NCBI GenBank assembly: GCA_027858835.1
Contig: JAQIBY010000040.1
Coordinates: 2,382-66,381, forward strand
Reading direction: 5' to 3'
DNA: 64,000 nucleotides
DNA from: Bacteroidales bacterium
Lineage (GTDB): Bacteria; Bacteroidota; Bacteroidia; Bacteroidales; ML635J-15
A program made the position numbers and the translations under genes. The notes under the pieces were generated by a model. It was not told the DNA's origin and ran no database searches. It was given only the letters and a program-made list of their open reading frames with translations. Numbering within the stretch: position 1 is the stretch's first letter; every line of letters begins with the position of its first letter. This document shows, piece by piece, positions 7,413-56,424 of this stretch.

Positions 7413-9170
7413 TCAATTCTTAATTATCATTTTTTTGTATTCTGATGTGCTTCCCAAGTCAATCTGAATCAAATACATTCCCGATTTGAGGTTTGTGTGC
7501 AATGCTTCATCACCAGCTACTTTTCGATCTAAAACTAATGACCCATCTATGGTGAAAATCCTAATATGAAGTTGTTCATTTCCTAAAAAACGAAAACTCC
7601 CAGAATTCGGGTTTGGGAATACCTGAAACATGTCACCATCCATTACCTGATGTCCATCAATCAAGACGGCGTTTTCACATGTATCAAAAGTCATTACCCC
7701 ATTAAAATATCTATCGTAGGCCGGAATATTGTTCTCGTTCATTCCAGCTGGATAACCAATTGATGACCAAGTATATTGATCATAAAAATAACAAGGAGAA
7801 TTCTCTAAATATAAGGACTCCTCCAAAATGTTTTCTGTTTCCGCAGGAATACAATCTCCAGTTTTATTATTTCCATATTCAAAGTGCCCATTACCATTCA
7901 ACATGTAATTACCAAGCAAGAAACCTAAATTGGTGATTTCATTTCCAATAAAATTACAAGAATCAGTTGCAGGATTAAAATTCATCACTATCCCATATTT
8001 CTCCAATCGATTTCTGAAAAATGTATTGTATGGACCATTACTGCCATGAGAATCATCGATAACAGCATTTTGAGCAATATTTCCTTCAAAGAGATTACAA
8101 TACACATAATTCCCATGTAACACTAAATCCCCTGCAGATGCAGATGGAAGTGCAGATTGATCCCAATACGGATCAAAAGAATAATTGTATGCAAATACGT
8201 TTCCATTGGCGCCAGATTGTAGCAACATGGAATGTCGTAAATGTTCGAAAACATTATTATGAATTAGACAGTCACTTGAACTTGCTGATACTTCGGCACC
8301 ATATCCTTGACCTCCTTCACCGTATGCATGCGCGTGATGAAAATAACATCCTGACACTTCACAATGCAAAGAAGTTCTTAAGCTTAAATGAGAAAAGTTG
8401 CAATTCTCACTTTGAATGCCTCTAACAGAACAATTATACGCGTAATTAAAGCGAATATTACATGTTTGTGCAGTGCTTGCATCAGCTCGTACAATTTGCA
8501 TATTTTTAATCAGAATATCCCTCACAGGAGTGATTTTAACCAAAACAGGATTGTTTTCTAACGGGTAGTCGTGTCTCAAATTACTTTTTAAAAAAACGGT
8601 GTCGGCGACCAAACTATCCACCTCACACAACTGAGCCATGGTAGAATACGCCCAGTCTGAAAACATATATGGCTCACCATCCATTTGAACCTTTACAACA
8701 TCACCAGCTTGTAAATCGGTTGGCAATGTTTGCAAAACAAGGAAGTCATTGCCCTTTTGCGCATTAATCACTGTCATGTTATCACCAGTAACACTACCTG
8801 ATGCATAAATAAAATCTGTTTCACTTTCAAGATTCGCATGCAGGATTGTTATTTCACTACTTGTTCCTTCAAGTATAATCCCAGAAGGCAACACGATTCT
8901 AGCGTTGAAGTGAAAGGTTCCAGCTGGAAACTGAATTTTCCCCGGCGCTCCGGCAAAACAATTGATTGCATTTTCCAGTGCATCATCGTCAGAAATCGCA
9001 TCATCAGGCATTCCTCCAAAATCGAGTATAGAAACAGATTCAATATCTTCGTTTATTGGATAAGACAAACCAGCATTTGACCAATTAACGATACGTTCAG
9101 GCGGAACTTGAGCATACAATTGTCCTGAAAAAACGAAAACAATAAGACTGAAAACTAAAATAAACTTCAT
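7413..9170 (-). CDS. Secreted right-handed beta-helix (pectate-lyase superfamily-like) protein with T9SS type-A C-terminal sorting domain
   Basis: 585 aa. Signal peptide, an N-terminal tailspike/pectate_lyase_3-like segment (ILDFGGMPDD...ALENAI), Asn/His-rich beta-helix repeats, and a C-terminus FQVFPNPNSGSFRF...GMYLIQIDL...KKMIIKN typical of the type-A CTD. Confidence 0.75.
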   Translation of the reverse strand: MKFILVFSLIVFVFSGQLYAQVPPERIVNWSNAGLSYPINEDIESVSILDFGGMPDDAISDDDALENAINCFAGAPGKIQFPAGTFHFNARIVLPSGIILEGTSSEITILHANLESETDFIYASGSVTGDNMTVINAQKGNDFLVLQTLPTDLQAGDVVKVQMDGEPYMFSDWAYSTMAQLCEVDSLVADTVFLKSNLRHDYPLENNPVLVKITPVRDILIKNMQIVRADASTAQTCNIRFNYAYNCSVRGIQSENCNFSHLSLRTSLHCEVSGCYFHHAHAYGEGGQGYGAEVSASSSDCLIHNNVFEHLRHSMLLQSGANGNVFAYNYSFDPYWDQSALPSASAGDLVLHGNYVYCNLFEGNIAQNAVIDDSHGSNGPYNTFFRNRLEKYGIVMNFNPATDSCNFIGNEITNLGFLLGNYMLNGNGHFEYGNNKTGDCIPAETENILEESLYLENSPCYFYDQYTWSSIGYPAGMNENNIPAYDRYFNGVMTFDTCENAVLIDGHQVMDGDMFQVFPNPNSGSFRFLGNEQLHIRIFTIDGSLVLDRKVAGDEALHTNLKSGMYLIQIDLGSTSEYKKMIIKN

Positions 9171-9215: not shown

Positions 9216-9223
9216 TAAATTTG
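9216..9223 (+). promoter_or_regulatory. Candidate -7 promoter box (TAAATTTG) upstream of the PGK cluster
   Basis: Matches TAnnTTTG in the divergent intergenic region, but lies about 110 nt before the ATG at 9334, so the assignment is tentative. Confidence 0.3.
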
Positions 9224-9333: not shown

Positions 9334-11718
9334 ATGAATCATATGGACGATTATCAGTTTAAAGGGAAGCGAGTTTTAATTCGCGTCGATTTTAATGTTC
9401 CCATTGATGAAAACGGGAAAATTACGGATGATACTCGGATTGTAACAGCAGTTCCGACAATCCAAAAAGTCTTAACAGAAGGTGGCTCGGCAATTATTAT
9501 GACCCACCTTGGTCGTCCGAAAGGACAATTTAATGAAGCATTAAGTGTAAAACGAATTTCTGATTATGTGGCAGCGATGCTTGGGCGAGAGATTATCGTG
9601 GCTGAGGATTGCATTGGTAAAGAAACTGAGAAATTGGCAGCCTCCCTCAAAAAGGGACAGGTTCTCATGCTTGAAAATCTCCGTTTTTACAATGAAGAAA
9701 CTGCCGGAGATGAGGAGTTTGCAAAAAAACTTGCCAAACTCGGTGATGCCTACATCAATAACGCTTTCGGAACAGCGCACAGAGCCCATGCATCTACATT
9801 TACGATTGCAAAATTTTTCCCATACGATAAAATGTTGGGTTATTTGGTTGAATCGGAAGTTAAGAATATTGATAAACTGCTTAAAAAAGCCAAATCACCG
9901 TTTACAGCAATTATTGGAGGAGCAAAAATCTCGACAAAAATTGATATCATTGAGGCTTTAATGGAGAAAGTGGATAACTTGATTATTGGCGGGGGCATTG
10001 TTTTTACTTTTCTCAAAGCCAAAGGGTTGGAAGTTGGAAATTCCCTGGTTGATGATGAGTATCTGAATGTGGCTCAGCGAATTATGGATACTGCCCGAGA
10101 TCGAAATGTCAAAATTTTTCTTCCTGAGGATGTTTTGATTGCAGACACTTTCAGTAATGAGGCGCAAATTGAACATGTGCCGGTTTCAGCCATTAAACCC
10201 GGCTGGATGGGAATGGATATCGGCGTAAAATCTGCAGAATTGTTTGAACAAGTGATTGAAGATTCCGAAAGCATTTTGTGGAATGGTCCCATGGGGGTGT
10301 TTGAAATGCCCCACTTTGCCTACGGAACATTGAAAACCGGTTTATCTGTGGCTCGTGCAACGGATAAAGGGTCATACAGTCTTGTCGGTGGAGGAGATTC
10401 CATTGCTGCATTGAAAAAGTACGCACTTGAACATAAAATATCTTATGTGTCAACTGCCGGTGGTGCTTTGCTGGAATATATCGAAGGGAAAAAGTTGCCG
10501 AGTTTAAAGGCAATTATGGAAACGCATTCCATTGATGATTATGATTTTCGTGGAAAACGTGCGCTGGTGCGGGTCGATTTTAATGTCCCGATGGATGAAA
10601 ATTTCAATATCACCGATGATACCAGAATTCGTACCGCCATTCCGACTTTACGAAAAATTCTTGCCGAAGGCGCTTCGATTATTTTGTTAACACATATTGG
10701 CAGACCAAAAGGTGAACGGATTGATAAGTATTCTGTTCGTCATATTATTCCGTATGTTTCAGAATTGCTCGGGACAGAAGTGAAATTTGCTGACCGATGC
10801 CGCGGTGATAATACCGAACATATTGCAGAAGCCTTAAAACCCGGCGAAGTGCTGATGCTGGAAAATCTTCGATTTACCAATGAAGAAATTGAGGGCAGTG
10901 AAAAATTTGCCGAAGAATTATCCCGATTAGGAGATGTCTATGTTAACAATGCCTTTGGAACGGCACATCGGGCACATGCATCCACTTATACCATTGCTAA
11001 ATTTTTCCCAGACGACAAGATGCTCGGTTATCTTATCGAAAATGAGATGAATAATATTAATCGGATTTTGCATAAAGCAGAACGTCCGTTTACAACTGTA
11101 ATCGGCGGGTCAAAAATCTCGACAAAAATTAATATCATCCGAGCCTTAATGGACAAAGCCGATAATGTAATCATTGGCGGTGGAATTGCCTTTACCTTTA
11201 TCAAAGCAATGGGAGGACAAATTGGAGACTCTCTCGTTGAGGAAGATTCGCTTGATGTTGCACGTGAAATTCTTGATTATGCTGCCCGGAGTTCAGTAAA
11301 GCTTTACCTGCCAACCGATTGTTTGATTGCGGATGCCTACGAGAATAACCCAAAAATCCGTCATTCCAAAGCAAATAATATCCCTGACGGATGGCGAGGG
11401 CTTGATATCGGTGTGAAAACGGCTGAAACTTATACGAAAGTCATTGAAAACTCCAATGCCATTTTGTGGAACGGTCCAATGGGAGTTTTCGAAATGCCAT
11501 ATTTCAGTAACGGAACCATAAAAATTGCGCTGGCAACTGCTCGTGCAACAGATATGGGAGCCTTTTCACTTGTTGGCGGGGGCGATTCGATTGCTGCGCT
11601 GAAACGATACGGAATGGGACATAAAATTTCATTTGTTTCTACTGCCGGAGGTGCTTTGCTCGAATATATTGAAGGGAAAGAGCTGCCGAGTTTAAAAGCC
11701 ATTCGAACCAAGATATAA
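9334..11718 (+). CDS. pgk: Tandem-fused phosphoglycerate kinase (two complete PGK modules in one ORF)
   Basis: The track ORF 9286-11718 starts at TTG. The first ATG, at 9334, gives MNHMDDYQFKGKRVLIRVDFNVP. Module 1 is 9334-10515 (394 aa) and ends ...GGALLEYIEGKKLPSLKAI. Module 2 starts in frame at ATG 10516 (METHSIDDYDFRGKRALVRVDFNVP) and ends ...LLEYIEGKELPSLKAIRTKI. Both modules carry RVDFNVP, H(L/I)GRPKG, ENLRF, NAFGTAHRAHAS, GG(A/S)KISTKI, WNGPMGVFE and GGGDS. Confidence 0.85.
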   Translation: MNHMDDYQFKGKRVLIRVDFNVPIDENGKITDDTRIVTAVPTIQKVLTEGGSAIIMTHLGRPKGQFNEALSVKRISDYVAAMLGREIIVAEDCIGKETEKLAASLKKGQVLMLENLRFYNEETAGDEEFAKKLAKLGDAYINNAFGTAHRAHASTFTIAKFFPYDKMLGYLVESEVKNIDKLLKKAKSPFTAIIGGAKISTKIDIIEALMEKVDNLIIGGGIVFTFLKAKGLEVGNSLVDDEYLNVAQRIMDTARDRNVKIFLPEDVLIADTFSNEAQIEHVPVSAIKPGWMGMDIGVKSAELFEQVIEDSESILWNGPMGVFEMPHFAYGTLKTGLSVARATDKGSYSLVGGGDSIAALKKYALEHKISYVSTAGGALLEYIEGKKLPSLKAIMETHSIDDYDFRGKRALVRVDFNVPMDENFNITDDTRIRTAIPTLRKILAEGASIILLTHIGRPKGERIDKYSVRHIIPYVSELLGTEVKFADRCRGDNTEHIAEALKPGEVLMLENLRFTNEEIEGSEKFAEELSRLGDVYVNNAFGTAHRAHASTYTIAKFFPDDKMLGYLIENEMNNINRILHKAERPFTTVIGGSKISTKINIIRALMDKADNVIIGGGIAFTFIKAMGGQIGDSLVEEDSLDVAREILDYAARSSVKLYLPTDCLIADAYENNPKIRHSKANNIPDGWRGLDIGVKTAETYTKVIENSNAILWNGPMGVFEMPYFSNGTIKIALATARATDMGAFSLVGGGDSIAALKRYGMGHKISFVSTAGGALLEYIEGKELPSLKAIRTKI

Positions 11719-11751
11719 TTTGCATTTTTTTAACGATAGAAAATTTGTGTT

Positions 11752-13056
11752 ATGGAAATTAATTTACCAAAAATTCAAGATGCCGATTTAAACGGGAAAG
11801 TTGTACTTGTCAGAGTTGATCACAATGTCGTGAAGAAAGGTGAAATTCATGACCCCTACCGGATTGATGCAACCATTGGAACGCTTTATCATATCAATGC
11901 AAAAGGAGGTAAAATTATTTTAATGACGCATGTCGGACGTCCGAAAAATAAAAAAACCGGTGAAATTGAAATCCATGATGATACTTCGGTGAAGCCGATT
12001 GTTGATTATCTCAATAATAAACTGCACATCAATATGAAAATTCCTGAATTTGTACCACATGGTAAAGATGGTTATTTGGGATTGGAAACTTCGATTAATC
12101 ATATGATTCGCGAATTGAGAAGCGGAGACCTCGATGGGATTTATCTGCCGAATACGCGTTGGTTTGCAGGCGAAGAAGCCGAAGGAGAAATTTCTGACCG
12201 CTTTGGTTTGCAGCTTGCCGGCTTGGCTGATGTGTTTGTCAATGATGCATTCGGATCATGGCAGCCTCATACATCAACCGTTAAGGTGAATAATTATCTG
12301 CCGTCTTATGCAGGATATCTTATGCAAAAGGAAATTGCTAATCTGGAGCGTATTTATCAGGCTGAAAATCCGTTTGTAGCTGTTGTTGCAGGAAGTAAAA
12401 TGGACACAAAAATTGATTCGCTGTATGCCTTGCTGAGGATTGCTGATAAACTAGTTTTGGGAGGCGTGATATATAATGCATATCTCTGTGCAAAATATGG
12501 AATTTCAATTAAAGGGGTAGATGATACAAACCTCAAACTTGCCGAGGAATTTGTTAAATATGCCGAGGATTATTCCGATAAGATTTTGGAGTTGGAGTAT
12601 ATCATTGAATCTGATACCCTTGACGGAAAAGAAGAAGGGAAATATCGCATGCATCACATTAAGGATTTAAAATCCGGACAATCATTAAATTATGTGCTAG
12701 ATGTTGCTCCGGAATCTTTTCACAAAGATGATGTTTGTCAGGTGTTTAAATCTGCAAAAACGATATTTATTAATGCCGTGATGGGATTTACGCCGCATTT
12801 TAATGATGGGACAATTGCATTAGATGAGCTTACGGATTCAAATCTTGATGCCGTAAAATTATATGGTGGTGGAGATACAATGCAAGAGCTGAAACGTCTT
12901 TTGCCTGGTTTATATATTGTGGCACTTGACAATCCGAAATATTATATCTTCACCGGAGGCGGTGCTGTTTTAAAAGCAATTCAGGAAGGAACTTATACGG
13001 GACTGGAGCCAGTGAAAGCTCTAGTAAGAAATCGTGAAAATCAAGTGAAACTTTAG
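11752..13056 (+). CDS. Divergent phosphoglycerate-kinase-like paralogue
   Basis: 434 aa, starting 33 nt after the fused pgk stop. It is collinear with PGK but has altered motifs: RVDHNVV, THVGRPKN, NTRWFAGEE, NDAFGSWQPHTS (versus AHRAHAS), AGSKMDTKI, NAVMGFTP (versus NGPMGVFE), GGGDT and FTGGGAVLKAI. Confidence 0.75.
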   Translation: MEINLPKIQDADLNGKVVLVRVDHNVVKKGEIHDPYRIDATIGTLYHINAKGGKIILMTHVGRPKNKKTGEIEIHDDTSVKPIVDYLNNKLHINMKIPEFVPHGKDGYLGLETSINHMIRELRSGDLDGIYLPNTRWFAGEEAEGEISDRFGLQLAGLADVFVNDAFGSWQPHTSTVKVNNYLPSYAGYLMQKEIANLERIYQAENPFVAVVAGSKMDTKIDSLYALLRIADKLVLGGVIYNAYLCAKYGISIKGVDDTNLKLAEEFVKYAEDYSDKILELEYIIESDTLDGKEEGKYRMHHIKDLKSGQSLNYVLDVAPESFHKDDVCQVFKSAKTIFINAVMGFTPHFNDGTIALDELTDSNLDAVKLYGGGDTMQELKRLLPGLYIVALDNPKYYIFTGGGAVLKAIQEGTYTGLEPVKALVRNRENQVKL

Positions 13057-16772: not shown

Positions 16773-19700
16773 TTACCGGATTAGCGTAAAACTTCCGGAT
16801 TTTGTGTAGGTGTTCCCGTAATAGTCGTCGAACTCAAGATACCAGCCATAAACGCCTTCAGGTGAGTTGACATGATTTGTTGTGCCGTTCCAGCCCTCTT
16901 CAATATCATCCGTTACAAAAAGGACTTCGCCCCAGCGGTTGTAAATTTCGAGATGATATGACTCAACATCAATTCCTGTAACATGTATGCTGTAAAATTC
17001 ATTCAATTCATCGAAATTCGGTGTAAATGCAGTTGGAGCATAAATCATAACTTCTCCTGACACCGTCATGTTTACCATAGCTGTATCAATACACCCGAAG
17101 AGTGATTCTGCCGTTAACATTACTGTGTATTTTCCTGGTTGTCCGAATGAATGTTGAGGATTTTCAACATCTGTGATGCCACCATCACCGAAATTCCACT
17201 CATAGAAATAAGCTCCGTCTGTGTAATTTGTGAAATGCACCAAGGGGTTGGTTAGCAGTACATTTGTTTTTGATGCTTCAAATTGCGCATCAGGTTTTGG
17301 ATGAACGGTAATTGCAATGGTGCTGTCTCTGCGACATCCCTCGGTAGATTCAACCATCAGATTTACATGATAGGTTGTTGCACTATGGAATGTGTGTGTA
17401 GGTTGTTTGTCAAATGACAGATTTTCCACGTCACCGTCATCAAAATTCCAAATATAGCGTTGTCCGATATGTGGACTCCCTTCATTAAAGTTTACTGTTA
17501 ATGGTTGGCATCCTTCTGTTACATCTGCATTAATTAATGTTTGAGGTAATGGATAAGCATAAATAGGATACTCAATATAAATACTGTCAAAATGGCAAGC
17601 ATCCCAAGCGGTAAATGCGAACACAGAATCTGTCCATGGGTGAACATATATCATATCGCCTGCAATCAGGCTATCGCCCATATATAATTCGTATGGTTGT
17701 CCTCCGCTACCTCGTAAATTAAAATCAAATTGAACTTCCTCATAAGGACAAACAGTATCTCGATTTGCTGTTAAATTGAATTCAAGAGAGTCTAAAACGG
17801 TTACAGTAAAATATGATGTGTCAGACATACAATTGATTGAATCTAATACAAACGCTCCATATTCTGTGGTTCCTTCGGGAGCAACTTCAATGGTTTCTCC
17901 TGATAGCCCGTGATGTGTCCAGAAAACATCATAAGGAGGAACTCCACCTGTAATCATACTGTATCCGATTGTTGTTGTTTGTCCCCAACATATGGTTTGA
18001 TCATCCAATGTAAGTAAAGACAGCGGTTCCGGTTGATTTACAGAGTCTGAAATTGTAAAATGGCAATAATGGTCGTCAGTAATTGTTACTGAATAATAGC
18101 CGGCACCAACACCAATTTGATCTTCTTGCCAGGAGCCGTTGTTCCACTCATAGTGATATGGTGGTGTTCCACCAAATGCTGTAATTTCTACAGAGCCATC
18201 TGTGTAATTTCCACAAGATGCATCGGTTGCTGTGATATTTGCGCCTAATGGTGCATCAGGTTGTATTACCTGGACGGTATCCCATGCAACGCAATTGTGA
18301 TTATCTGTAACGGTAACCGCATAAATTCCGGGAGGTAAGGAGTCGATGCTTTGACCAATTTGACCGTTTGACCATGTATAAAAATATGGCTCGGTGCCTC
18401 CGAAAACATTTACGCTTGCATAACCATTGGCTTCACCAAAACATCTTACATCTTCATGTTCAATTGTTGCTGTTAAAGGGAAGTCGGGTTGGTCAATTTG
18501 CACATATGCATAGGTTTGACAGTCATTAATATCTGTAACTGTTACAATGTAGATTCCTGCTGGGATATCTTCCAAATCTTCAGTTGTATCTCCATTATTC
18601 CATTGATAGCTATATGGAGGCGTGCCACCGTTTGCCGTTAAATTAATGTATCCGTTACTATCTCCAAAACAAGAGACATCGTTACTATGAATATTTGCAA
18701 CAAGTGGTTCTGGTTCAATAATTACCATGGTATGCGAAATGTCGCACCCATTAGCATCAGTAATTGTTAGTGAGTAATCGCCTGCCGGGATATTTAATAA
18801 ATCTTGTGTGTGCATGCCATTGTCCCACTCATAGTAATATGGAGGTGTTCCACCTGCCGGAGTAACATCAAGTTCTCCGTCGTATCCACCATGGCAAGAA
18901 ACATTGACAAATGTGTAAGTCATTGTGAGTGGGGCATCTGGTTCATCCACAAACACAGAATCTTCATAAGTACAGCCTACAGAGTCAGTAACCGTAACAT
19001 AATGCCATCCGGCATAAACGTTCACTGGGTTTTGGTCATCGCTGTTGACAGGCTCCCACCAATAGGTATGAGAACCGGCTCCGCCTCCTGAGTTTACATA
19101 AAGGTTTCCGGTTGCTTCTCCGTGACATAGTACATCATCAGCATAAGTGCTTGCCCACATGGGTGGATAAAGATTTGATATATTCATCTCTCCAAAAACT
19201 TCACATCCATAGACATCGCTTACGGTAACGTAATAATACCCTGCCGGAACTGTTATGCTGTCAATAGGAGAAATGTGAGTGTTTATCATCCCGTTGGAAT
19301 ACTCAAAAGTATATGGACCGGTTGAGTTGAGCGCAGTAATAGTAACAACGCCAGATGTGTCTCCAAAACAAAGAATGTCGTTTCCGTCAATTTCAAAATC
19401 CAATTCCGGTAATGGTATAATATTTACCATGTCATGGATTGTGTCATCATCTTCATAAAAACCGTCCATTTCCCAAGTTTGATCAAACCAGTTGATAGGA
19501 ATGTATCCCAAGGGGACAGAGCCTTCCAATAATGGTCCAATTTCGAATGGTCCGATGGTAATGTCTTTTTCGCCATTTTTTGAATCGTACATGGCAACAT
19601 AATCATCCTTAGCGAGATAATCGCTCAAGTCAATTTCCGGGGTTGAATATGCAGGGGATGTAATATTTGTGAAAACTTGTTCTCCGGTTTTCGGGTCGGT

Positions 19701-21068
19701 GTATGAAATGGGAATGTCGAAATTGGGAATTTCATTCGATTTGAAAGGGGTTTCCAGAACAATTGTAATGGATGCGTAAACTACTGAATACAAGAAATCG
19801 AAGGTTAAAGAATCCCATGTGTGATTTGCAAACGTCGGACTAATGTCATACTCTACCGAGATATCCATGGAATCCCAGTCGAAACAAGGATAAGTAAAAT
19901 TCAAATCGTTATTTACTTCAAATGTGATGGTATCAGCATTTCCGGCAGCAATTAATGCATTTCCGGCATTTGGATCGGTTTCAGTGTATGGTACGGATAG
20001 TGGGAAGCCTAGTGTTGCCCAAATGGTTGGACAAAATGAGAATTCCTGTGTCATCCAGCTATTCATATCAAAGGAAATTTGCAGGATATAATAATCGATT
20101 ATTGCAGTTACTGGGCTAACATCGTAGGTTATTGTGCCACCGTCGATAATATCAATCACACTGGCAATTGCCGGACCTGCTGGTGGAGGAATGAGATTTG
20201 CAATCGCACTTAAGAATGTTAAAATATTAAGGTTGAAATGAATCCAATTATCTTGTCCGTATGCTTCAAGACATTGGGTGGTAGGATCAAGCCAGTCGTC
20301 CGTTTCTACGTATGGAAGATCTATCTCTCCGGTGAGACCGATGCCAAACCAGTCGGGTATAATAATTGGTAAGATATCATCTTCACAAAATGCGGGAAGT
20401 CCGGTGACTGGGTCTAAACATGGATAAACGACTTCTCCAGTTTCACCATTGAGATAAAATACTGCAATAGAATCATGGGGAAGAGGTTGTCCTGGGATTG
20501 GTTCTGAAGGAATGTTAAAGCTGGGTATGAGTGGAATAGTGGTTGTTCCAAATAATTCAACGACTAAATCCATATGTAATCCAAGTCCGAACTCTAAGTC
20601 TAATGCAATCACTCCGGCAGTTGGGAAATGTGAATCAAGATACCATCCGTCTAGCACATCGTACCATGAGTTGATTGTAATGGTTTCTCCCGGATCAAAG
20701 CCGTAATCATCTGGAAAATCGAGTGTGATATCAACGGGATAATTAATGTCTATGCTGCCAAGTGTAAATCCATGAATACTAAAGGTTGAACGAATTACTC
20801 CCCAGAAACCGTAGTCAAACCCCATGCCAAAGGTTTCTCCGAAGATGGTTGTGTAAGCACCAACATTGTCTGATTCATTCCATTCAATGTCAATGATATC
20901 AAAATCAAAATCCAAACTGAATGAGCCTCCCGGTCCCCACATATCCTGATCGTGAGTCTCATATATAATGTTGTGAATTAATACATTGGTGGGGTCTTGT
21001 GCCTTGGCTTTATGCAGCCCTGACAATCCAATGATTAATAATGCGATTATGATAATTCGTTGTTTCAT
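16773..21068 (-). CDS. Large secreted adhesin-like protein with SprB-type repeats, PKD-like domains and T9SS type-B (gliding-motility-associated) C-terminal domain
   Basis: 1431 aa with a signal peptide. It has at least 6 repeats of the C.G...G...V...GGT.PY.Y.W.NG pattern, and PKD-like segments (NFNEGSPHIGQRYIWNFDDGD, YEWNFGDGG). The C-terminus is YAPTAFTPNFDELNEF...IYNRWGEVLF...GWNG...GVYGWYLEF...GSFTLIR. Confidence 0.85.
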   Translation of the reverse strand: MKQRIIIIALLIIGLSGLHKAKAQDPTNVLIHNIIYETHDQDMWGPGGSFSLDFDFDIIDIEWNESDNVGAYTTIFGETFGMGFDYGFWGVIRSTFSIHGFTLGSIDINYPVDITLDFPDDYGFDPGETITINSWYDVLDGWYLDSHFPTAGVIALDLEFGLGLHMDLVVELFGTTTIPLIPSFNIPSEPIPGQPLPHDSIAVFYLNGETGEVVYPCLDPVTGLPAFCEDDILPIIIPDWFGIGLTGEIDLPYVETDDWLDPTTQCLEAYGQDNWIHFNLNILTFLSAIANLIPPPAGPAIASVIDIIDGGTITYDVSPVTAIIDYYILQISFDMNSWMTQEFSFCPTIWATLGFPLSVPYTETDPNAGNALIAAGNADTITFEVNNDLNFTYPCFDWDSMDISVEYDISPTFANHTWDSLTFDFLYSVVYASITIVLETPFKSNEIPNFDIPISYTDPKTGEQVFTNITSPAYSTPEIDLSDYLAKDDYVAMYDSKNGEKDITIGPFEIGPLLEGSVPLGYIPINWFDQTWEMDGFYEDDDTIHDMVNIIPLPELDFEIDGNDILCFGDTSGVVTITALNSTGPYTFEYSNGMINTHISPIDSITVPAGYYYVTVSDVYGCEVFGEMNISNLYPPMWASTYADDVLCHGEATGNLYVNSGGGAGSHTYWWEPVNSDDQNPVNVYAGWHYVTVTDSVGCTYEDSVFVDEPDAPLTMTYTFVNVSCHGGYDGELDVTPAGGTPPYYYEWDNGMHTQDLLNIPAGDYSLTITDANGCDISHTMVIIEPEPLVANIHSNDVSCFGDSNGYINLTANGGTPPYSYQWNNGDTTEDLEDIPAGIYIVTVTDINDCQTYAYVQIDQPDFPLTATIEHEDVRCFGEANGYASVNVFGGTEPYFYTWSNGQIGQSIDSLPPGIYAVTVTDNHNCVAWDTVQVIQPDAPLGANITATDASCGNYTDGSVEITAFGGTPPYHYEWNNGSWQEDQIGVGAGYYSVTITDDHYCHFTISDSVNQPEPLSLLTLDDQTICWGQTTTIGYSMITGGVPPYDVFWTHHGLSGETIEVAPEGTTEYGAFVLDSINCMSDTSYFTVTVLDSLEFNLTANRDTVCPYEEVQFDFNLRGSGGQPYELYMGDSLIAGDMIYVHPWTDSVFAFTAWDACHFDSIYIEYPIYAYPLPQTLINADVTEGCQPLTVNFNEGSPHIGQRYIWNFDDGDVENLSFDKQPTHTFHSATTYHVNLMVESTEGCRRDSTIAITVHPKPDAQFEASKTNVLLTNPLVHFTNYTDGAYFYEWNFGDGGITDVENPQHSFGQPGKYTVMLTAESLFGCIDTAMVNMTVSGEVMIYAPTAFTPNFDELNEFYSIHVTGIDVESYHLEIYNRWGEVLFVTDDIEEGWNGTTNHVNSPEGVYGWYLEFDDYYGNTYTKSGSFTLIR

Positions 21069-33352: not shown

Positions 33353-36118
33353 ATGATGAGAAATTTTCTTGTATTTACGATAGGAGTCTGTCTGTTTTTG
33401 TGCTTTAATGTCGCTTTGCAGGCGCAAGAAAAGCCCCAGCAAGTTCCGGGTAAAATTGTACTCAAATTGTCAGACAATTCTGTGAAAACCCAAGATGTTT
33501 TAGCATTTTTATCATCAAAATATGATATTGCACATATTAATAGAGCCTTCCCATCGGCTGAAAAGCCTACGAGATCATCCATAAATGGACATCAAACCAT
33601 AGATTTAAGTCGATATGTTGAAATTCAATTAACATCTAATTTACAAAAAAGTGCTTGTATTCAAGATTTGAATAAATCTGAATTTGTAGAATATGCTGAA
33701 CCACGCTATATCCCTGAATTGTTATATGTCACTGATGATCCAAACCATGAAAGCCAATATTATCTTAGTACCATTCATGCCTATGATGCATGGGATCTGC
33801 ATCAATCTGATACAAATATGGTTATAGCGATTGTGGATACAGGAATTGATATGGATCATGAAGATTTAATTTATAATATTGCTTATAATTTCGATGACCC
33901 CATTGATGGTATTGATAATGACAATGATGGCTATGTTGATAATTTCAGAGGCTGGGATATGGGTGATAATGATAATTTTCCGCAAAATGAGATGAATGAA
34001 CATGGTACGCTGTGTGCCGGAATGGCAGCAGCGCATACCGATAATGGACTCGGCATTGCAGGCGTTGGTTTTAAATCTCGAATTCTCCCGATAAAAGTGC
34101 AGGATGCTGATAGTTTATTAACTCGTGCTTATGAAGGCATCGTTTATGCTGCTGATCAGGGGGCTCACATTATTAATTGTTCATGGGGAAATACGCATTA
34201 TGCACAATTTGAACAAGATATTATTCAGTATGCTACAATAAATAAAGATGCACTTGTCGTGGCATCAGCCGGAAATGATAATAATGATGTTAATTTTTAT
34301 CCGGCAAGTTATGATTATGCTTTATCAGTTGCCGGAACTACCAGTGCAGATGAAAAATGGACCCCTGAAAACGGAAATTCCACAGGTGGATCGAGCTTTG
34401 GTTATCATGTGGATATTTGTGCTCCCGGAATCCGAATTATGACAACATCAGACGGTAATGATTACCGACAAGCTTATGCAGGAACTTCATTTTCTGCTCC
34501 AATTGTTGCTGGAGCGGCCGGCGTTCTGCGCTCTCAATATCCTCAGCTTTCAGCGCTACAAAGTATTGAGCATTTGAAAAACACTGCTGATAATATTGAT
34601 ACCATTGCATACAACGAGCCTTGGCAGGGGATGCTGGGTGCCGGAAGACTTAATATGTATCGCGCAGTCTCAGAAGATTTTAAACCCGGCTTAGTGTTTA
34701 AAAACATCCAAATTTATGACGATAGTGAAAACAACTTTGAAAACACAGCTATTGTTGAAATTCAAGGAATGCTTTTTAATTATTTGCATGATGCAGAAAA
34801 TGTTGAGCTTGCAGTTTCTATGCACAGCAATAATGCCACAGTTTTAACTCCAAATTTTGTTTTAGGCAGTATAGACAGTCTTTCTTATTTGACAATTAAT
34901 GATTCCGGAATCCAAATTGAATTAGATGAGCCAATCAGTTACGATGAAAAAGTTATTGTAAAACTTGAAATTACTGCCGATAATTTCTCCAGAACACAAT
35001 ATATCGAGTTTCTTGTTAATCCATCTTTCGCAAATATTAGTAATGGGAGTATATTGTTAAGTGTCCCGGCAAACGGGAAACTTGGCTTTGCAGATAGTTA
35101 TAGACAGATTGGTAACGGATTAAATTACAATGAATTCAGGGATTTGTTTTACGATGCAGCATGGGTAATGGGAAATGCCACCGATGCACTTATTGATGCA
35201 GTTCGGGTTAACACTGAGTTTCAAATGACGCTCCCAAGTTCAATTACAGATGATGATTTTGCCGACGAGGCGCTCGTTTCTCAATTTCTTGCATATGATG
35301 TTGAATCGGCACTTAATCTTGAAATTAATCAAAAAGTCTTTGCTTGGTATGATTTGCCGAATGCCTTATTAATAGAGTTGGATATTGTCAATCAAAACAT
35401 TGTAAGTGCAAGTAACTTTTATGCATCACTTTTTACGGATTGGGATTTGTTTAAATACAACAGAAATCGAATCTCATGGGATGAGATAAAGCAAATTGCC
35501 TACACTGAGCACACCGGCGATGTCAATCTTTATGCCGGATATATCCTTTTATCCGATCAGAGCATTAACCATTATGCAATGGATCAGTTGAATTACTCAG
35601 GTGGCTTGGTTGACATGACAAACGGATTGAGTGTTGAGGAAAAGTTTTATTCTATGTCAAATACAAATCATACTGTCGGACAAGTTGGATACGGGACAGA
35701 TGTTGCGCAAATGTTTGGTGCCGGGCCGATGAATATTGACGCACAAGACACAGTGAAAATTGCGATTGGCATGCTCGTAGCACAAAGTTTTTATGAGTTA
35801 CAAGTTGCTGCCGATAGTTTGCGGAGTAATTATCAGAGTATGTATCCGGAGGACTCAGGGATTGTGAGCAATGAAAATTCAGATTTTGTTTTCTATCCGA
35901 ATCCGCTTGATGATGAATTGTTTTTAAATTTCTCCAATGCTGTTTCCGGAGATTGTGAAATTCGCATTTATGATGTGAATGCAAGATTGGTTTATGAAAA
36001 TAAAGTGCCAACAACGAAACAAAGCATTCACCTAAATTTACCTGCAGGAATTTATCAATTAGCAGTCCAGATTGACTCGCATTTTTATCAGAACAAGCTT
36101 ATTATTCTTCATGATTAA
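33353..36118 (+). CDS. S8 family (subtilisin-like) serine peptidase with T9SS type-A C-terminal sorting domain
   Basis: 921 aa. Catalytic triad contexts VAIVDTGID, NEHGTLCAG and GTSFSAPIVAG. The C-terminus is FVFYPNPLDDELFLNF...GIYQLAVQI...KLIILHD. Confidence 0.9.
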   Translation: MMRNFLVFTIGVCLFLCFNVALQAQEKPQQVPGKIVLKLSDNSVKTQDVLAFLSSKYDIAHINRAFPSAEKPTRSSINGHQTIDLSRYVEIQLTSNLQKSACIQDLNKSEFVEYAEPRYIPELLYVTDDPNHESQYYLSTIHAYDAWDLHQSDTNMVIAIVDTGIDMDHEDLIYNIAYNFDDPIDGIDNDNDGYVDNFRGWDMGDNDNFPQNEMNEHGTLCAGMAAAHTDNGLGIAGVGFKSRILPIKVQDADSLLTRAYEGIVYAADQGAHIINCSWGNTHYAQFEQDIIQYATINKDALVVASAGNDNNDVNFYPASYDYALSVAGTTSADEKWTPENGNSTGGSSFGYHVDICAPGIRIMTTSDGNDYRQAYAGTSFSAPIVAGAAGVLRSQYPQLSALQSIEHLKNTADNIDTIAYNEPWQGMLGAGRLNMYRAVSEDFKPGLVFKNIQIYDDSENNFENTAIVEIQGMLFNYLHDAENVELAVSMHSNNATVLTPNFVLGSIDSLSYLTINDSGIQIELDEPISYDEKVIVKLEITADNFSRTQYIEFLVNPSFANISNGSILLSVPANGKLGFADSYRQIGNGLNYNEFRDLFYDAAWVMGNATDALIDAVRVNTEFQMTLPSSITDDDFADEALVSQFLAYDVESALNLEINQKVFAWYDLPNALLIELDIVNQNIVSASNFYASLFTDWDLFKYNRNRISWDEIKQIAYTEHTGDVNLYAGYILLSDQSINHYAMDQLNYSGGLVDMTNGLSVEEKFYSMSNTNHTVGQVGYGTDVAQMFGAGPMNIDAQDTVKIAIGMLVAQSFYELQVAADSLRSNYQSMYPEDSGIVSNENSDFVFYPNPLDDELFLNFSNAVSGDCEIRIYDVNARLVYENKVPTTKQSIHLNLPAGIYQLAVQIDSHFYQNKLIILHD

Positions 36119-39937: not shown

Positions 39938-39945
39938 TATCTTTG
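39938..39945 (+). promoter_or_regulatory. -7 promoter box (TATCTTTG) upstream of the hydrolase/FmdE fusion gene
   Basis: Lies 15 nt upstream of the ATG at 39961. It overlaps the TTG start in the track (39943), which argues for the 39961 start. Confidence 0.45.
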
Positions 39946-39960
39946 TGTAAAATTTATGCA

Positions 39961-41373
39961 ATGAAAAGCAGAAAACTTTTAATCCTCATTTCACTGATAC
40001 TGATAGCTTTTTCAGGCTATGCCCACAAAAAAGCATCATGGAATATAATTGTTGATACCGATGGCGCTGCAGATGATTTTCGTATGCTGCAAATCATTTT
40101 GGCTTCGCCCGATTTTAATCTGAATGCGGTTTGTACTTCTGACGGAGTACTCGCACCCGAACAATCAGCAGCTAAAATCAAAGGAATGCTGAATTATTAT
40201 CATCATGAGGGAATTCCTGTTGCTGCCGGAAAAGCGCTCGAAATTGAATTTTCCCATCGTGAATTTGTCAATTCCCTTAAATGGCCGGGCGAAGCATCTG
40301 CCGATTTTTCACATAATGCGCTTGAGCTTTACATGCAAAGTTTAAATCTGCATTCCCGAAAAAATGTAATTATCGCATCCGGTCCCTTAACAAACATTGC
40401 TAAGCTTCTGAGAACTTATCCCGAAGCAATTGAAAAAATCGACCACATTCTCTGGTATCACAACCCTGAAGAGCCTGGAATGAATTATCTCAGAGATAAA
40501 AAATCCGCAGAATTTGTCATGAAAACTTTTCCGGAAATCACCTATATTCATGCGGGTGATTCTGAAATCACCTTAAATGAGGAGTTTTTATCTTTTTTGA
40601 AGAGCTTAGATAATATCTATGTTAATTCCTTGTCGGAATATTTATATCAGGAGTCTTTGGCAAATCATAATTACCTCGGAAAGTATCCCGTTTGGGATGA
40701 ATGTTTGCCAATGTATTTACTTTTTCCTGAAATATTTGAAGAAAACAATACCGGATTTACGCCTAACTCGTCTGATTTATTGATGAATATGCTGGCTGTA
40801 CTTCATGTTAACAGGCCGATTGAAGGCGTAATCTGGAAAAAGAATTCGACAGAAAAATCCTATCTCAGAGATGATGTTTATTCCATTACCGACAGCCTGA
40901 TTCAAAAATTCGGATATAATGAATTTCAGGTTCTAGCGATGACCAGCGAATTTCATGGGCATCTCGGGCTATATTCCATTATGGGAGCAAAAATGGGATT
41001 GCGAGCAATGCAATATTTCTCAGTAGGCTTGGATGAATTGGAAGTATGGTCATTTGCAGGAAAAAAGCCACCACTCAGTTGCATGCATGATGGCTTGCAG
41101 TTTAGTACTGGAGCATCACTCGGTTTCGGAACCATTCATGTGGTTGAAGACGTGGAGTACTCGCCAAAAGCAAAATTCGTTTACGGAAATCGACAAATAC
41201 TGATTGAGCTGAAGCCTGATATGCAAGCAAAATTTAAACAAGACATCAAAAATTCAATTGAAAAATACGGATTATTAACCGATGCCTATTGGGATGAAAT
41301 CCGTCGAATCGGACTGAATTACTGGATTAATTTAGACAAAAATGATATTTTTACGATTCGGGTTGTTGAATAA
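39961..41373 (+). CDS. Secreted fusion protein: inosine/uridine-preferring nucleoside-hydrolase-like N-domain plus FmdE-like C-domain
   Basis: Signal peptide MKSRKLLILISLILIAFSGYA. The N-domain has IIVDTDGAADDFRMLQIIL (DxDxxxDD nucleoside-hydrolase motif). The C-domain has FHGHLGLYSIMGAKMGLRA...PPLSCMHDGLQFSTGASLGFG, resembling the FmdE family (FHGH...C..D..Q..TG.T.G). Confidence 0.65.
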   Translation: MKSRKLLILISLILIAFSGYAHKKASWNIIVDTDGAADDFRMLQIILASPDFNLNAVCTSDGVLAPEQSAAKIKGMLNYYHHEGIPVAAGKALEIEFSHREFVNSLKWPGEASADFSHNALELYMQSLNLHSRKNVIIASGPLTNIAKLLRTYPEAIEKIDHILWYHNPEEPGMNYLRDKKSAEFVMKTFPEITYIHAGDSEITLNEEFLSFLKSLDNIYVNSLSEYLYQESLANHNYLGKYPVWDECLPMYLLFPEIFEENNTGFTPNSSDLLMNMLAVLHVNRPIEGVIWKKNSTEKSYLRDDVYSITDSLIQKFGYNEFQVLAMTSEFHGHLGLYSIMGAKMGLRAMQYFSVGLDELEVWSFAGKKPPLSCMHDGLQFSTGASLGFGTIHVVEDVEYSPKAKFVYGNRQILIELKPDMQAKFKQDIKNSIEKYGLLTDAYWDEIRRIGLNYWINLDKNDIFTIRVVE

Positions 41374-55722: not shown

Positions 55723-56424
55723 ATGAAATTTGGTGTAATTATTTTTCCGGGATCGAATTGTGACCATGACATGGTCTATGTTTTACGAGATAAATTAAAT
55801 CAGGAGGTCGTTGAGCTTTGGCACAAAGATACTGACCTGCAGTCTGTTGACGCAATTATGTTGCCTGGGGGATTTTCCTACGGTGATTATTTGCGTTCCG
55901 GAGCCATAGCCCGTTATTCCCCAATTATGGAATCCGTCATTGAATTTGCCAATAATGGCGGGTTTGTTTTTGGAGTGTGCAATGGTTTTCAGGTGCTTTG
56001 TGAAACCGGATTATTGCCGGGAGCTTTGCTGCATAACAATGATCAAAAGTTTATCTGCAAAAATCAGCACATTATTGCCGAGCAAAAGCACAGTGCACTC
56101 ACAGAATATGTGCCGAACGGGAAAATTCTGACAATCCCGATTGCCCACGGTGAAGGCAGATATTATGCTCCGAAAGATGTACTTGCTGACATGATGCAAA
56201 ATCATCAAATTATTTTTAGATACACGAATGAAGACGGCGATCTTTCAGAAGATGGAAATCCAAACGGTTCAAGTATGAATATCGCTGGAGTTTGTAATCT
56301 TACCGGAAATGTGTTCGGTATGATGCCGCATCCGGAACGTGCCGCCGATGAAGATTTGGGTAATACTGACGGGTTAATGATTCTTCATTCGATTATCCAT
56401 CATCTTGAGTCGAAGAAGGCTTAA
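55723..56424 (+). CDS. purQ: Phosphoribosylformylglycinamidine synthase, glutaminase subunit
   Basis: 233 aa. KFGVIIFPGSNCDHD, GVCNGFQ (catalytic Cys) and MMPHPER motifs. Confidence 0.9.
   Translation: MKFGVIIFPGSNCDHDMVYVLRDKLNQEVVELWHKDTDLQSVDAIMLPGGFSYGDYLRSGAIARYSPIMESVIEFANNGGFVFGVCNGFQVLCETGLLPGALLHNNDQKFICKNQHIIAEQKHSALTEYVPNGKILTIPIAHGEGRYYAPKDVLADMMQNHQIIFRYTNEDGDLSEDGNPNGSSMNIAGVCNLTGNVFGMMPHPERAADEDLGNTDGLMILHSIIHHLESKKA

What the first reader, a model, noticed from the sequence alone, without database searches (positions are those of the whole stretch)
9334..11718. Two complete phosphoglycerate kinase modules fused head-to-tail in one ORF
Seen in sequence:
- The ORF contains two full-length PGK units, 9334-10515 (394 aa) and 10516-11718 (400 aa).
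- There is no stop, frameshift or linker at the junction. It reads ...GKKLPSLKAI|METHSIDDYDFRGKRALVRVDFNVP, with codons aag gca att ATG gaa.
- The second unit ends ...GKELPSLKAIRTKI-stop, so the first unit's normal C-terminus runs directly into the initiator Met of the second.
- Both halves keep every PGK motif I can recognise: RVDFNVP, HxGRPKG, ENLRF, NAFGTAHRAHAS, GGxKISTKI, WNGPMGVFE, GGGDS.
- The halves are clearly diverged. About 38 of 55 residues are identical in the first conserved block by my count, and the nucleotide sequences differ throughout. This is not an assembly duplication.

Established knowledge: bacterial PGK is normally a ~400-aa monomer made of two hinged domains. PGK-TIM fusions are known in Thermotoga, but I am not aware of a described PGK-PGK tandem fusion.

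Inference: this is an old duplication whose two copies have been kept as a covalent pseudo-dimer.
Basis: partly seen in the sequence, partly recalled or inferred. Interest (0 to 1): 0.75.

Follow-up and report, generated by a model that had tools for sequence, protein, structure and literature searches.

The report
Tandem double phosphoglycerate kinase, one polypeptide
One gene in this uncultured Bacteroidales genome encodes two complete, intact copies of the glycolytic enzyme phosphoglycerate kinase joined head-to-tail, a conserved but undescribed architecture found in at least 80 species and followed here by a third, divergent PGK gene.

Summary
ORF 9334-11718 (+) is one uninterrupted 794-aa frame with two full-length PGK (PF00162) units. 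The units are 63% identical with no gaps, and there is no linker.

It is not an artefact:
- At least 120 protein clusters and all 80 best species-level genome loci carry the same roughly 794-aa fusion. Nearly all are uncultured Bacteroidales/Bacteroidota MAGs.
- The junction length is invariant in 78 of 78 measurable loci.
- Both halves keep every catalytic motif.
- Both halves are under equally strong purifying selection (dN/dS 0.02-0.04).

The junction Met is not conserved (mostly Lys/Arg), so the second unit has no start codon of its own.

The halves form one clade with a few single-unit relatives. Some lineages show gene-conversion tracts between the halves.

It lies immediately downstream of the fusion in 38 of 73 assessable loci.

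NCBI protein records often trim the fusion to about 400 aa by starting at ATT/ATC/ATA, which hides it. I found no paper describing a PGK-PGK protein.

Most likely this is a covalent tandem PGK with two active sites, analogous to hexokinase II. It is a new variant of a known enzyme, of moderate interest.

The parts
9216..9223 (+). Candidate Bacteroidota-type -7 promoter box (TAAATTTG, consensus TAnnTTTG) in the intergenic region about 110 nt upstream of the start codon
   Evidence: this is the only + strand match between 9216 and 12452. The motif count over the whole window equals chance (83 observed versus 82 expected), so this is a weak inference only.
9334..11718 (+). Fused pgk-pgk gene: one 794-aa ORF (stop included) encoding two complete phosphoglycerate kinase units
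   Evidence: Homologues of the same length and N-terminus. dN/dS 0.02-0.04.
9334..10515 (+). PGK unit 1 (residues 1-394), with all substrate- and nucleotide-site motifs intact: RVDFNVP, DDTRI, HLGRPKG, ENLRF, NAFGTAHRAHAS, GGAKISTKI, WNGPMGVFE, GGGDS, STAGGA
   Evidence: The AF2 model superposes on solved PGKs with TM-score (target-normalised) up to 0.96.
10507..10527 (+). Junction K-A-I|M-E-T-H. The C-terminal helix of unit 1 runs directly into the N-terminus of unit 2, with no linker, stop or shift
   Evidence: Spacing from AGGALLE to the second RVDFN is 38 residues in 78 of 78 loci. Met395 is replaced by K/R/I in most orthologues.
10516..11715 (+). PGK unit 2 (residues 395-794), with all catalytic motifs intact
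11719..11751 (+). 33-nt spacer between the fusion gene and the third PGK gene. No terminator-like hairpin, so co-transcription is likely
   Evidence: no terminator-like site between 11190 and 11986.
11752..13056 (+). Third, divergent PGK paralogue ('PGK3', 434 aa). It keeps R38, H62, R65, R122, K215, K219, N336 and D374 equivalents. Family-wide it has H169W and R170Q, lacks the F342-E343 segment and carries several insertions
   Evidence: (PF00162, 270 bits). Within 6 kb of the fusion in 47 of 73 assessable loci, and immediately downstream in 38.

Best explanation
The gene encodes a genuine single polypeptide of about 87 kDa. It is made of two complete phosphoglycerate kinases joined directly: the C-terminal helix of unit 1 runs into the N-terminal strand of unit 2.

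Origin and history:
- It arose by tandem duplication of a single-unit PGK of the 'STAGGALLEY' type in an ancestor of an uncultured Bacteroidales clade.
- An in-frame deletion removed the first copy's last few codons, its stop codon and the spacer.
- It has been kept since, with occasional gene conversion between the halves.

Function:
- Both units most likely still catalyse 1,3-bisphosphoglycerate + ADP <-> 3-phosphoglycerate + ATP. The protein would then be a two-active-site tandem enzyme, analogous to mammalian hexokinase II.
- In PGK both chain ends lie in the N-terminal (3-PG-binding) domain (established PGK structure). The zero-length junction should therefore place the two N-domains side by side and leave both nucleotide-binding C-domains free to hinge.
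- It is probably co-transcribed with the divergent PGK3 gene downstream.

Shown: one ORF; two full units; conservation of the junction; intact motifs; equal purifying selection; the clade structure.

Inferred: activity of both sites; domain arrangement; a housekeeping role; the operon.
For: - Single frame and two full PF00162 matches.
- 63% identity between the halves with no gaps.
- At least 120 clusters of about 794 aa.
- The 80 best of 438 confirmed matches in species-representative genomes all cover the whole query or nearly all of it.
- Junction spacing is invariant in 78 of 78 loci, and the junction Met is not conserved.
- Catalytic residues are invariant in both halves across 105 sequences. 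These include R17/R413, D19/D415, N21/N417, R35, H58/H454, R117/R513, H149-R150/H545-R546, K202/K598, G352-354 and G749-750-D751 (motif counts).
- dN/dS is 0.020-0.042 for the N half and 0.028-0.042 for the C half against the closest relatives.
- Mean ortholog identity is 0.68 for the N half and 0.70 for the C half.
- The halves plus close relatives form one clade.
- Gene-conversion tract: 133 identical nt in L042 where about 26 are expected.
- The AF2 units are confident (mean pLDDT 84.7). Each superposes on solved PGKs with target-normalised TM-score 0.93-0.96.
- An independent PGK-PGK fusion (P0243) sits immediately upstream of a TIM gene. This shows that a tandem PGK can occupy a classic glycolytic locus.
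Against: - No biochemical or expression data exist.
- AF2 does not fix the mutual arrangement of the two units (pTM 0.52; junction pLDDT 61-65).
- I could not scan a whole genome of the clade, so I do not know whether a separate ordinary pgk also exists or which of the three modules carries the main flux.
- PGK3 is more conserved than the fusion between the same genome pairs (about 75% versus about 63%). It could therefore be the principal enzyme.
- In a sister subclade (14 of 80 loci) the N half has changes in nucleotide-site motifs (WNGP to WDGP, GG[AS]K to GGDK, VFE to VYE). The halves are not always equivalent.
Confidence: 0.7

Rival explanations
1. Hexokinase-I-like outcome. Only one unit is catalytic, and the other has become a regulatory or ligand-sensing module that merely retains the PGK fold.
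For: - In 14 of 80 loci the N half carries substitutions at nucleotide-site motifs while the C half stays canonical.
- A related 'remnant' family (P0421-P0424, P0242) keeps only a degenerate nucleotide-binding domain (WNGTLGHTE, VDGSDT) in front of a full PGK. Decay of unit 1 therefore does happen in this lineage.
Against: - In the window's protein and its subgroup every catalytic motif is canonical in both halves.
- dN/dS is equally low in both halves.
Confidence: 0.15
2. The locus is expressed as separate PGKs of about 43 kDa. This could happen by internal initiation at Met395 (as NCBI-style annotations imply) or by a recoding event near the junction, so the fusion is only nominal.
For: - The window and its closest relatives do have ATG at the junction.
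- NCBI protein records of 395-405 aa exist for many of these loci.
- From memory, as a lead only: the Thermotoga pgk-tpi locus yields both a free PGK and a fusion.
Against: - Unit 1 has no stop codon, so any ribosome starting at 9334 must make the fusion.
- The junction residue is K/R/I in most orthologues.
- The NCBI short proteins start at ATT/ATC/ATA codons with at least 394 open in-frame codons upstream. That looks like homology-guided start trimming rather than biology.
- The junction length is invariant, which implies selection on the joined form.
Confidence: 0.07
3. The three PGK modules form a functionally differentiated set. PGK3, and possibly one fusion half, would act on a different substrate or nucleotide, or serve opposite flux directions, rather than being redundant PGKs.
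For: - PGK3 lies immediately downstream in 38 of 73 assessable loci and within 6 kb in 47.
- PGK3 has family-wide H169W and R170Q, loses the F342-E343 segment and carries insertions, yet keeps the phosphotransfer residues.
- It is very strongly conserved (73-96% identity).
- It is shared with Desulfobacterales at about 75% identity.
Against: - 26 of 73 assessable fusion loci have no PGK3 within 6 kb.
- In a Desulfobacterales chromosome PGK3 occurs without the fusion nearby.
- There is no neighbouring gene that suggests a special pathway.
- There are no biochemical data.
Confidence: 0.2
4. Assembly or sequencing artefact: a collapsed or duplicated region, or a missed stop codon.
For: - One representative (P0244) does look like an assembly repeat.
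- One MAG (L082) has a TGA inside unit 1.
Against: - The halves are only 64% identical at nucleotide level, with a longest exact match of 20 nt.
- The same architecture appears in 80 independent genome assemblies, including two complete chromosomes.
Confidence: 0.01

Closest known systems
Canonical monomeric bacterial phosphoglycerate kinase (EC 2.7.2.3; e.g. PDB 1PHP Geobacillus stearothermophilus, 1VPE Thermotoga maritima, 3Q3V Campylobacter jejuni)
   Same: - Each unit is a full-length PF00162 match and 44-46% identical to these enzymes.
- Each unit has all 3-PG- and nucleotide-site residues.
- The predicted fold superposes with target-normalised TM-score 0.93-0.96.
   Different: - Two such units sit in one chain with no linker.
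- No PDB chain covers more than one unit. Alignments span 390-416 columns, query-normalised TM-score is at most 0.48, and the longest PGK chain is 511 aa.
PGK-TIM fusion of Thermotoga (fus gene; NCBIfam NF010569)
   Same: A PGK covalently fused at its C-terminus to another glycolytic enzyme. This is the only bacterial PGK fusion discussed in the PGK review (PMC7729029).
   Different: - The partner here is a second PGK, not TIM.
- NF010569 matches only over its PGK part (profile positions 1-393 of 645) and scores 496-501 bits against a cut-off of 883.
Mammalian 100-kDa hexokinases (HK II: both halves catalytic; HK I: N half regulatory) and eukaryotic PFK: duplication-fusion of a glycolytic kinase (established knowledge)
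   Same: - Head-to-tail fusion of two homologous full-length kinase units.
- In the window both halves keep catalytic residues, as in HK II.
- A sister subclade and the 'remnant' family show one half diverging or decaying, as in HK I.
   Different: - The fold and family are unrelated, so this is an analogy of evolutionary route only.
- No activity or allostery data exist here.
Non-covalent oligomeric PGKs of extremophiles (homodimers in Pyrococcus woesei and Methanothermus fervidus; other oligomeric forms such as tetramers are also reported; PMC7729029)
   Same: More than one PGK unit per functional particle. The review suggests stabilisation through subunit contacts.
   Different: - Those are separate chains of archaeal-type PGK.
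- Here the link is covalent, the enzyme is bacterial-type, and the organisms are low-GC Bacteroidales MAGs with no sign of thermophily.
Other multi-PGK proteins found here: P0243 (797 aa, unnamed bacterium; halves 72% identical; next gene TIM) and mollusc proteins (Aplysia XP_035826093.1, 1918 aa with 4 PGK stretches plus a THEG repeat; Bulinus KAH9525160.1)
   Same: - Two or more PF00162 units in one chain.
- P0243 also joins its units without a linker.
   Different: - These are independent origins. The P0243 halves are each other's sisters, far from the Bacteroidales clade.
- The mollusc proteins are long eukaryotic proteins, probably sperm-associated.
- None is characterised.

Membership tests
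Phosphoglycerate kinase (Pfam PF00162, EC 2.7.2.3), unit 1 and unit 2 | Full-length match to the family profile above the curated cut-off | tested here: met
   979.4 bits against a cut-off of 27, in 2 stretches. The best stretch covers 4-386 against profile positions 1-379 of 379; each half aligns end to end with the PGK part of NF010569.
Phosphoglycerate kinase (Pfam PF00162, EC 2.7.2.3), unit 1 and unit 2 | 3-PG-binding basic patch (human numbering R38, H62, R65, R122, H169/R170, plus D23/N25) | tested here: met
   Present in both halves of the window protein. Invariant or nearly invariant in both halves across 105 family members (motif counts).
Phosphoglycerate kinase (Pfam PF00162, EC 2.7.2.3), unit 1 and unit 2 | Nucleotide-binding and phosphotransfer residues (K215, K219, N336, E343, G371-D374, GGG loop) | tested here: met
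   GG[AS]KISTKI, WNGPMGVFE, GGGDS and STAGGA are present in both halves.
Phosphoglycerate kinase (Pfam PF00162, EC 2.7.2.3), unit 1 and unit 2 | Two-lobed hinge-bending PGK fold | tested here: met
   AF2 mean pLDDT 84.7. Foldseek against PDB PGKs gives target-normalised TM-score 0.93-0.96 and rmsd 1.3-2.0 A over about 390 columns. This is a prediction, not a solved structure.
Phosphoglycerate kinase (Pfam PF00162, EC 2.7.2.3), unit 1 and unit 2 | Catalysis of 3-PG + ATP <-> 1,3-BPG + ADP by each unit | not testable with these tools
   Requires an enzyme assay with per-site mutants.
Bifunctional PGK-TIM (NCBIfam NF010569) | TIM domain C-terminal to PGK; whole-protein score at or above 883 bits | tested here: not met
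   496 and 502 bits, and only profile positions 1-393 of 645 are matched. Pfam finds no TIM domain.
PGK family, third ORF (PGK3, 11752-13056) | Profile match above the cut-off | tested here: met
   PF00162, 269.9 bits, residues 8-411 against profile positions 1-377 of 379.
PGK family, third ORF (PGK3, 11752-13056) | Complete canonical 3-PG and nucleotide sites | tested here: not met
   H169W and R170Q, a one-residue deletion before them, the F342-E343 segment absent, and NGP changed to NAV. These changes are conserved across 120 family members. R38, H62, R65, R122, K215, K219, N336 and D374 are kept. It is a PGK homologue, but its PGK activity is uncertain.
Duplication-fusion 'double' kinases (hexokinase II type): an analogy, not homology | Two homologous full-length catalytic units in one chain, both retaining catalytic residues | tested here: met
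   Whether both are active is not testable here.

The most novel reading that the evidence does not exclude
The fusion and PGK3 together form a conserved three-module PGK system in an uncultured Bacteroidales clade, in which the modules are not redundant. PGK3 has an altered 3-PG phosphate site (R170Q, H169W) and ribose site (loss of the E343 segment), and it is shared by horizontal transfer with Desulfobacterales. It would use a different substrate or nucleotide, or work in a different flux direction. The covalently coupled double PGK would show inter-unit communication, such as cooperativity or half-of-sites behaviour, which is impossible in the textbook monomer.
Probability: 0.2. Interest if true: 0.7.

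Novelty: new variant of a known kind. Interest (0 to 1): 0.5.

Why it matters

What the fusion offers:
- It is a natural, strongly conserved covalent tandem with two intact active sites. That makes it a ready-made system for asking whether two hinge-bending units can be coupled.
- It lets one watch the duplication-fusion route, known from hexokinase and PFK, at several stages in one bacterial lineage. Those stages are an intact double enzyme, a subclade with a diverging N half, and a family with a decayed remnant.
- It shows concerted evolution inside a single gene.

Practical lesson: homology-guided start-codon selection trims many of these ORFs to a 'normal' 400-aa PGK that starts at ATT/ATC/ATA. 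The architecture is therefore under-reported in public protein sets and in metabolic reconstructions of these MAGs.

The co-located divergent PGK3 is a candidate for a new specificity within a family that has essentially one known reaction.

Tried and rejected
- **Assembly duplication or a hidden stop.** Rejected, because the halves are diverged at nucleotide level and 78 of 78 independent loci have an identical junction length.
- **Second unit as an independent gene using Met395.** Rejected as the general mechanism, because Met is not conserved and unit 1 has no stop.
- **PGK-TIM type fusion.** Rejected.
- **Origin of one half by horizontal transfer.** Rejected, because the halves are closer to each other and to STAGGALLEY-type singles than to any other PGK.
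- **Diagnostic N-type versus C-type residues, to separate gene conversion from re-duplication.** Only 4 diagnostic columns were found, so this was uninformative. Identical nucleotide tracts gave the evidence instead.
- **Repeated independent fusions, to explain N and C halves of one protein being sisters (P0030 99/100; P0085/P0059 100/100).** Judged less likely than conversion, because every member has exactly the same junction. Not formally excluded.
- **Sigma-70 promoter scan.** Not meaningful for Bacteroidota. The TAnnTTTG search is at chance level window-wide.
- **Gene neighbourhood.** It gives no pathway clue: T9SS cargo, TonB receptor, SprB, LspA, IleRS.
- **Another pgk elsewhere in the same genome.** I could not determine this.
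- **AF2.** It did not resolve the inter-unit geometry.
- **Literature searches.** Searches for PGK-PGK, 'two PGK domains', 'PGK domains', tandem/fusion plus Bacteroidetes and PGK-like returned nothing relevant.
Full report
**1. The observation**

- The + strand carries one ORF from 9286 (TTG) to 11718. The ATG at 9334 gives 794 aa, which is the length and N-terminus of the homologues.
- The junction reads aag gca att ATG gaa (…KAI|METH…) with no stop, shift or linker. The stop TAA is at 11716-11718.
- Pfam PF00162 (PGK) matches in two stretches totalling 979 bits. The best stretch spans profile positions 1-379 of 379.
- Each half aligns end to end with the PGK part, and only the PGK part, of NCBIfam's PGK-TIM model.
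- The halves are 63% identical (248/391) with no gaps.
- At nucleotide level they are 64% identical. Third codon positions are 43% identical and the longest exact match is 20 nt. This is not a collapsed or duplicated assembly.

**2. It is real and widespread**

- A protein search returned 120 clusters (at 90% identity). All cover 98-100% of the query, nearly all are 791-800 aa, and identity is 59-94%. They come from NCBI, JGI, ENA and Logan assemblies.
- A scan of one genome per GTDB species found 438 confirmed matches. The 80 best loci all cover the whole query or nearly all of it.
- Almost all of these are MAGs labelled Bacteroidales, Bacteroidota or Marinilabiliales. Two are complete chromosomes: OY781043.1 (94% identical) and OY762280.1. 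A few are labelled as other phyla (Aminicenantes, Delongbacteria, Thiohalospira), which probably reflects binning contamination; I did not test this.
- OY781043.1 also shares the downstream gene order TonB receptor, SprB, LspA, IleRS.
- The distance from AGGALLE of unit 1 to RVDFN of unit 2 is 38 residues in 78 of 78 measurable loci.
- The residue at the window's Met395 is Lys, Arg or Ile in most members. Met occurs only in the window's closest relatives and a few others. The 'initiator Met' is therefore incidental, and the second unit has no conserved start of its own.

**3. Both halves are maintained as enzymes**

- Across 105 aligned family members the substrate-site and nucleotide-site residues are invariant or nearly so in both halves (motif counts).
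- Mean ortholog identity is 0.68 for N halves and 0.70 for C halves.
- Against the closest relatives, dN/dS is 0.020-0.042 for the N half and 0.028-0.042 for the C half.
- AF2 with a 105-sequence alignment gives mean pLDDT 84.7. Each unit superposes on solved PGKs with target-normalised TM-score 0.93-0.96.
- The relative position of the units is not defined (pTM 0.52; junction pLDDT 61-65).
- No PDB chain contains two PGK units.

**4. Evolutionary history**

- *One clade.* In a neighbour-joining tree the 60 sampled halves form one clade, 100/100, against the first set of single PGKs.
- *Fusion predates a subgroup split.* For the window's subgroup and a sister subgroup, N halves group with N halves (85/100) and C halves with C halves (97/100).
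- *Sister halves in other lineages.* In some lineages the two halves of the same protein are sisters (P0030 99/100; P0085/P0059 100/100).
- *Gene conversion.*
  - In L042 the last ~180 nt of the two units are 96-99% identical, including a 133-nt exact run where about 26 nt are expected. The rest of that gene is about 70-88% identical.
  - L079 has a 50-nt exact run.
  - With the invariant junction, this favours a single fusion followed by episodic intragenic gene conversion. Repeated fusion is not formally excluded.
- *Closer singles added.* Three true single-unit PGKs with the same STAGGALLEY signature (P0456, P0461, P0464) fall inside or next to the fusion clade (78/100 for fusion halves plus these). 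P0456 and P0464 were checked at their loci and sit alone there (L084-L087).
- *Remnant family.*
  - P0421-P0424, P0242, P0426 and P0428 are 617-651 aa. One of these clusters has 213 members.
  - They consist of a degenerate nucleotide-binding domain of about 205 aa, followed by a full PGK.
  - The full unit is sister to the fusion clade, and the whole assemblage has 99/100 support.
- *Asymmetric divergence.* In 14 of 80 loci the N half has WDGP, GGDK and VYE in place of WNGP, GG[AS]K and VFE.
- *Overall picture.* The lineage shows intact, diverging and decayed versions of unit 1.
- *Rarity elsewhere.*
  - In a library of 1.84 billion representatives the whole fusion family collapses into one representative.
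  - Only one other complete bacterial PGK-PGK was seen: P0243, whose halves are 72% identical and whose next gene is TIM.
  - Multi-PGK proteins were also seen in molluscs.

**5. The third PGK**

- An ORF of 434 aa lies 33 nt downstream (11752-13056) and matches PF00162 at 270 bits.
- Its family ('PGK3') is very conserved (73-96% identity over 120 clusters).
- It keeps the R38, H62, R65, R122, K215, K219, N336 and D374 equivalents.
- Family-wide it has H169W and R170Q, lacks the F342-E343 segment and has several insertions.
- Of 73 assessable fusion loci:

| PGK3 position relative to the fusion | Loci |
|---|---|
| Immediately downstream, same strand | 38 |
| Elsewhere within 6 kb | 9 |
| None within 6 kb | 26 |

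- It never lies adjacent on the same strand in the subclade with the diverged N half.
- It also occurs without the fusion in a complete Desulfobacterales chromosome at about 75% identity, which suggests inter-phylum transfer.
- No terminator-like site lies in the spacer.
- A Bacteroidota-type -7 box lies upstream of the fusion at 9216-9223 (weak evidence).
- Co-transcription is therefore plausible but only inferred.

**6. Why it has gone unnoticed**

- Many NCBI protein records for these same contigs are 395-405 aa and named 'phosphoglycerate kinase'.
- They are exact sub-sequences of the fused ORF. They begin at ATT, ATC or ATA (Ile in frame) or at an internal ATG, with at least 394 open in-frame codons upstream.
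- Other gene callers on the same contigs give about 794 aa.
- I infer that homology-guided start selection trims the fusion to the expected PGK length.
- Full-text searches found no paper on a PGK-PGK protein.
- A detailed 2020 PGK review lists monomers, archaeal homodimers and other oligomeric forms, the PGK-TIM fusion and PAS/CNB multidomain forms. It does not list tandem PGK (PMC7729029).

**7. Mechanism**

- *Most likely (0.7):* a covalent two-active-site PGK. Both chain termini of PGK lie in the N-domain (established structure). The direct junction should therefore juxtapose the two 3-PG-binding domains and leave both ATP-binding domains free to close.
- *Possible benefits (all inference):* fixed stoichiometry, higher stability, or coupling between the sites.
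- *Rivals:*
  - one half is regulatory (0.15);
  - the three modules are functionally differentiated, with PGK3 as the odd one (0.2; this overlaps the main reading);
  - the halves are expressed as separate proteins (0.07);
  - artefact (0.01).

**8. Verdict**

- It is a new variant of a known enzyme family: present in databases, plainly or wrongly annotated, and undescribed in the searched literature.
- Interest is moderate (0.5). It is an evolutionary and enzymological curiosity with a useful annotation lesson, plus a potentially more interesting divergent paralogue next door.

Noticed in passing
window 11752-13056 (+); L002 10001-11293: The divergent PGK paralogue (PGK3) has family-wide H169W and R170Q and lacks the F342-E343 segment. 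It is 73-96% conserved. It also occurs alone in a complete Desulfobacterales chromosome (CP070789.1) at about 75% identity, which suggests inter-phylum transfer and possibly a changed specificity.
   Followed up: partly
L004, L005, L007, L008, L010, L012, L014, L018, L027, L029, L041, L061, L062, L064, L075, L076 (fusion ORFs): NCBI protein records of 395-405 aa for these contigs are sub-ORFs of the fused gene. They start at ATT/ATC/ATA or an internal ATG, with at least 394 open codons upstream. The annotation trims the fusion to a normal-length PGK.
   Followed up: yes
L042 6025-8406; L079 1557-3935: Gene-conversion tracts between the two halves of the same gene. L042 has a 133-nt exact identity, and the last ~180 nt of each unit are 96-99% identical, in a gene that is otherwise about 70-88% identical between halves. 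L079 has a 50-nt exact run.
   Followed up: yes
L083 8001-10394: Independent second bacterial PGK-PGK fusion (P0243, 797 aa). Its halves are 72% identical, all motifs are intact and there is no linker. It sits immediately upstream of a TIM gene in an unnamed metagenomic contig of 358 kb.
   Followed up: partly
proteins P0421-P0424, P0242, P0426, P0428 (no locus fetched): 'Remnant' family of 617-651 aa. It has a degenerate PGK nucleotide-binding domain of about 205 aa (WNGTLGHTE, VDGSDT), a short linker, and a full PGK with a Bacteroides-type insertion. The full unit is sister to the fusion clade. One cluster has 213 member sequences.
   Followed up: partly
proteins P0247, P0248 (Bulinus truncatus KAH9525160.1; Aplysia californica XP_035826093.1): Mollusc proteins with 2-4 PGK units in one chain. 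The Aplysia protein also has a THEG (testicular haploid expressed) repeat, so these are probably sperm-associated multi-PGK proteins. They are uncharacterised.
   Followed up: no
L082 about 7132 (codon 378 of the fusion ORF): A TGA stop interrupts the AGG*ALLE motif of unit 1 in Marinilabiliales MAG BM703. This could be a sequencing error, a pseudogene or a recent fission. NCBI annotates a 383-aa PGK there.
   Followed up: no
L015, L020, L021, L023-L025, L027, L028, L030, L036, L037, L047, L055, L082: In this subclade the N half has WDGP, GGDK and VYE in place of WNGP, GG[AS]K and VFE, while the C half stays canonical. In these loci PGK3 is never adjacent on the same strand.
   Followed up: partly
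window 39943-41373 (+): A 476-aa ORF combines an inosine-uridine nucleoside hydrolase domain with a C-terminal FmdE domain, which is an unusual pairing.
   Followed up: no
window 7413-9170 (-), 16773-21068 (-), 33353-36118 (+), 60383-62149 (+): Several type IX secretion cargo proteins (Por_Secre_tail or CHU_C sorting domains): a beta-helix protein, a SprB/PKD giant protein, an S8 protease and a SprB-repeat protein. This confirms a Bacteroidota chromosome. A class I FBPase lies at 57619-58641, and a DAHP synthase-chorismate mutase fusion lies at 56393-57490.
   Followed up: no
PDB 9io5 chain O: The best solved-structure match to PGK3 is a 511-aa 'phosphoglycerate kinase' chain, which is longer than any ordinary PGK. 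Its origin was not examined.
   Followed up: no
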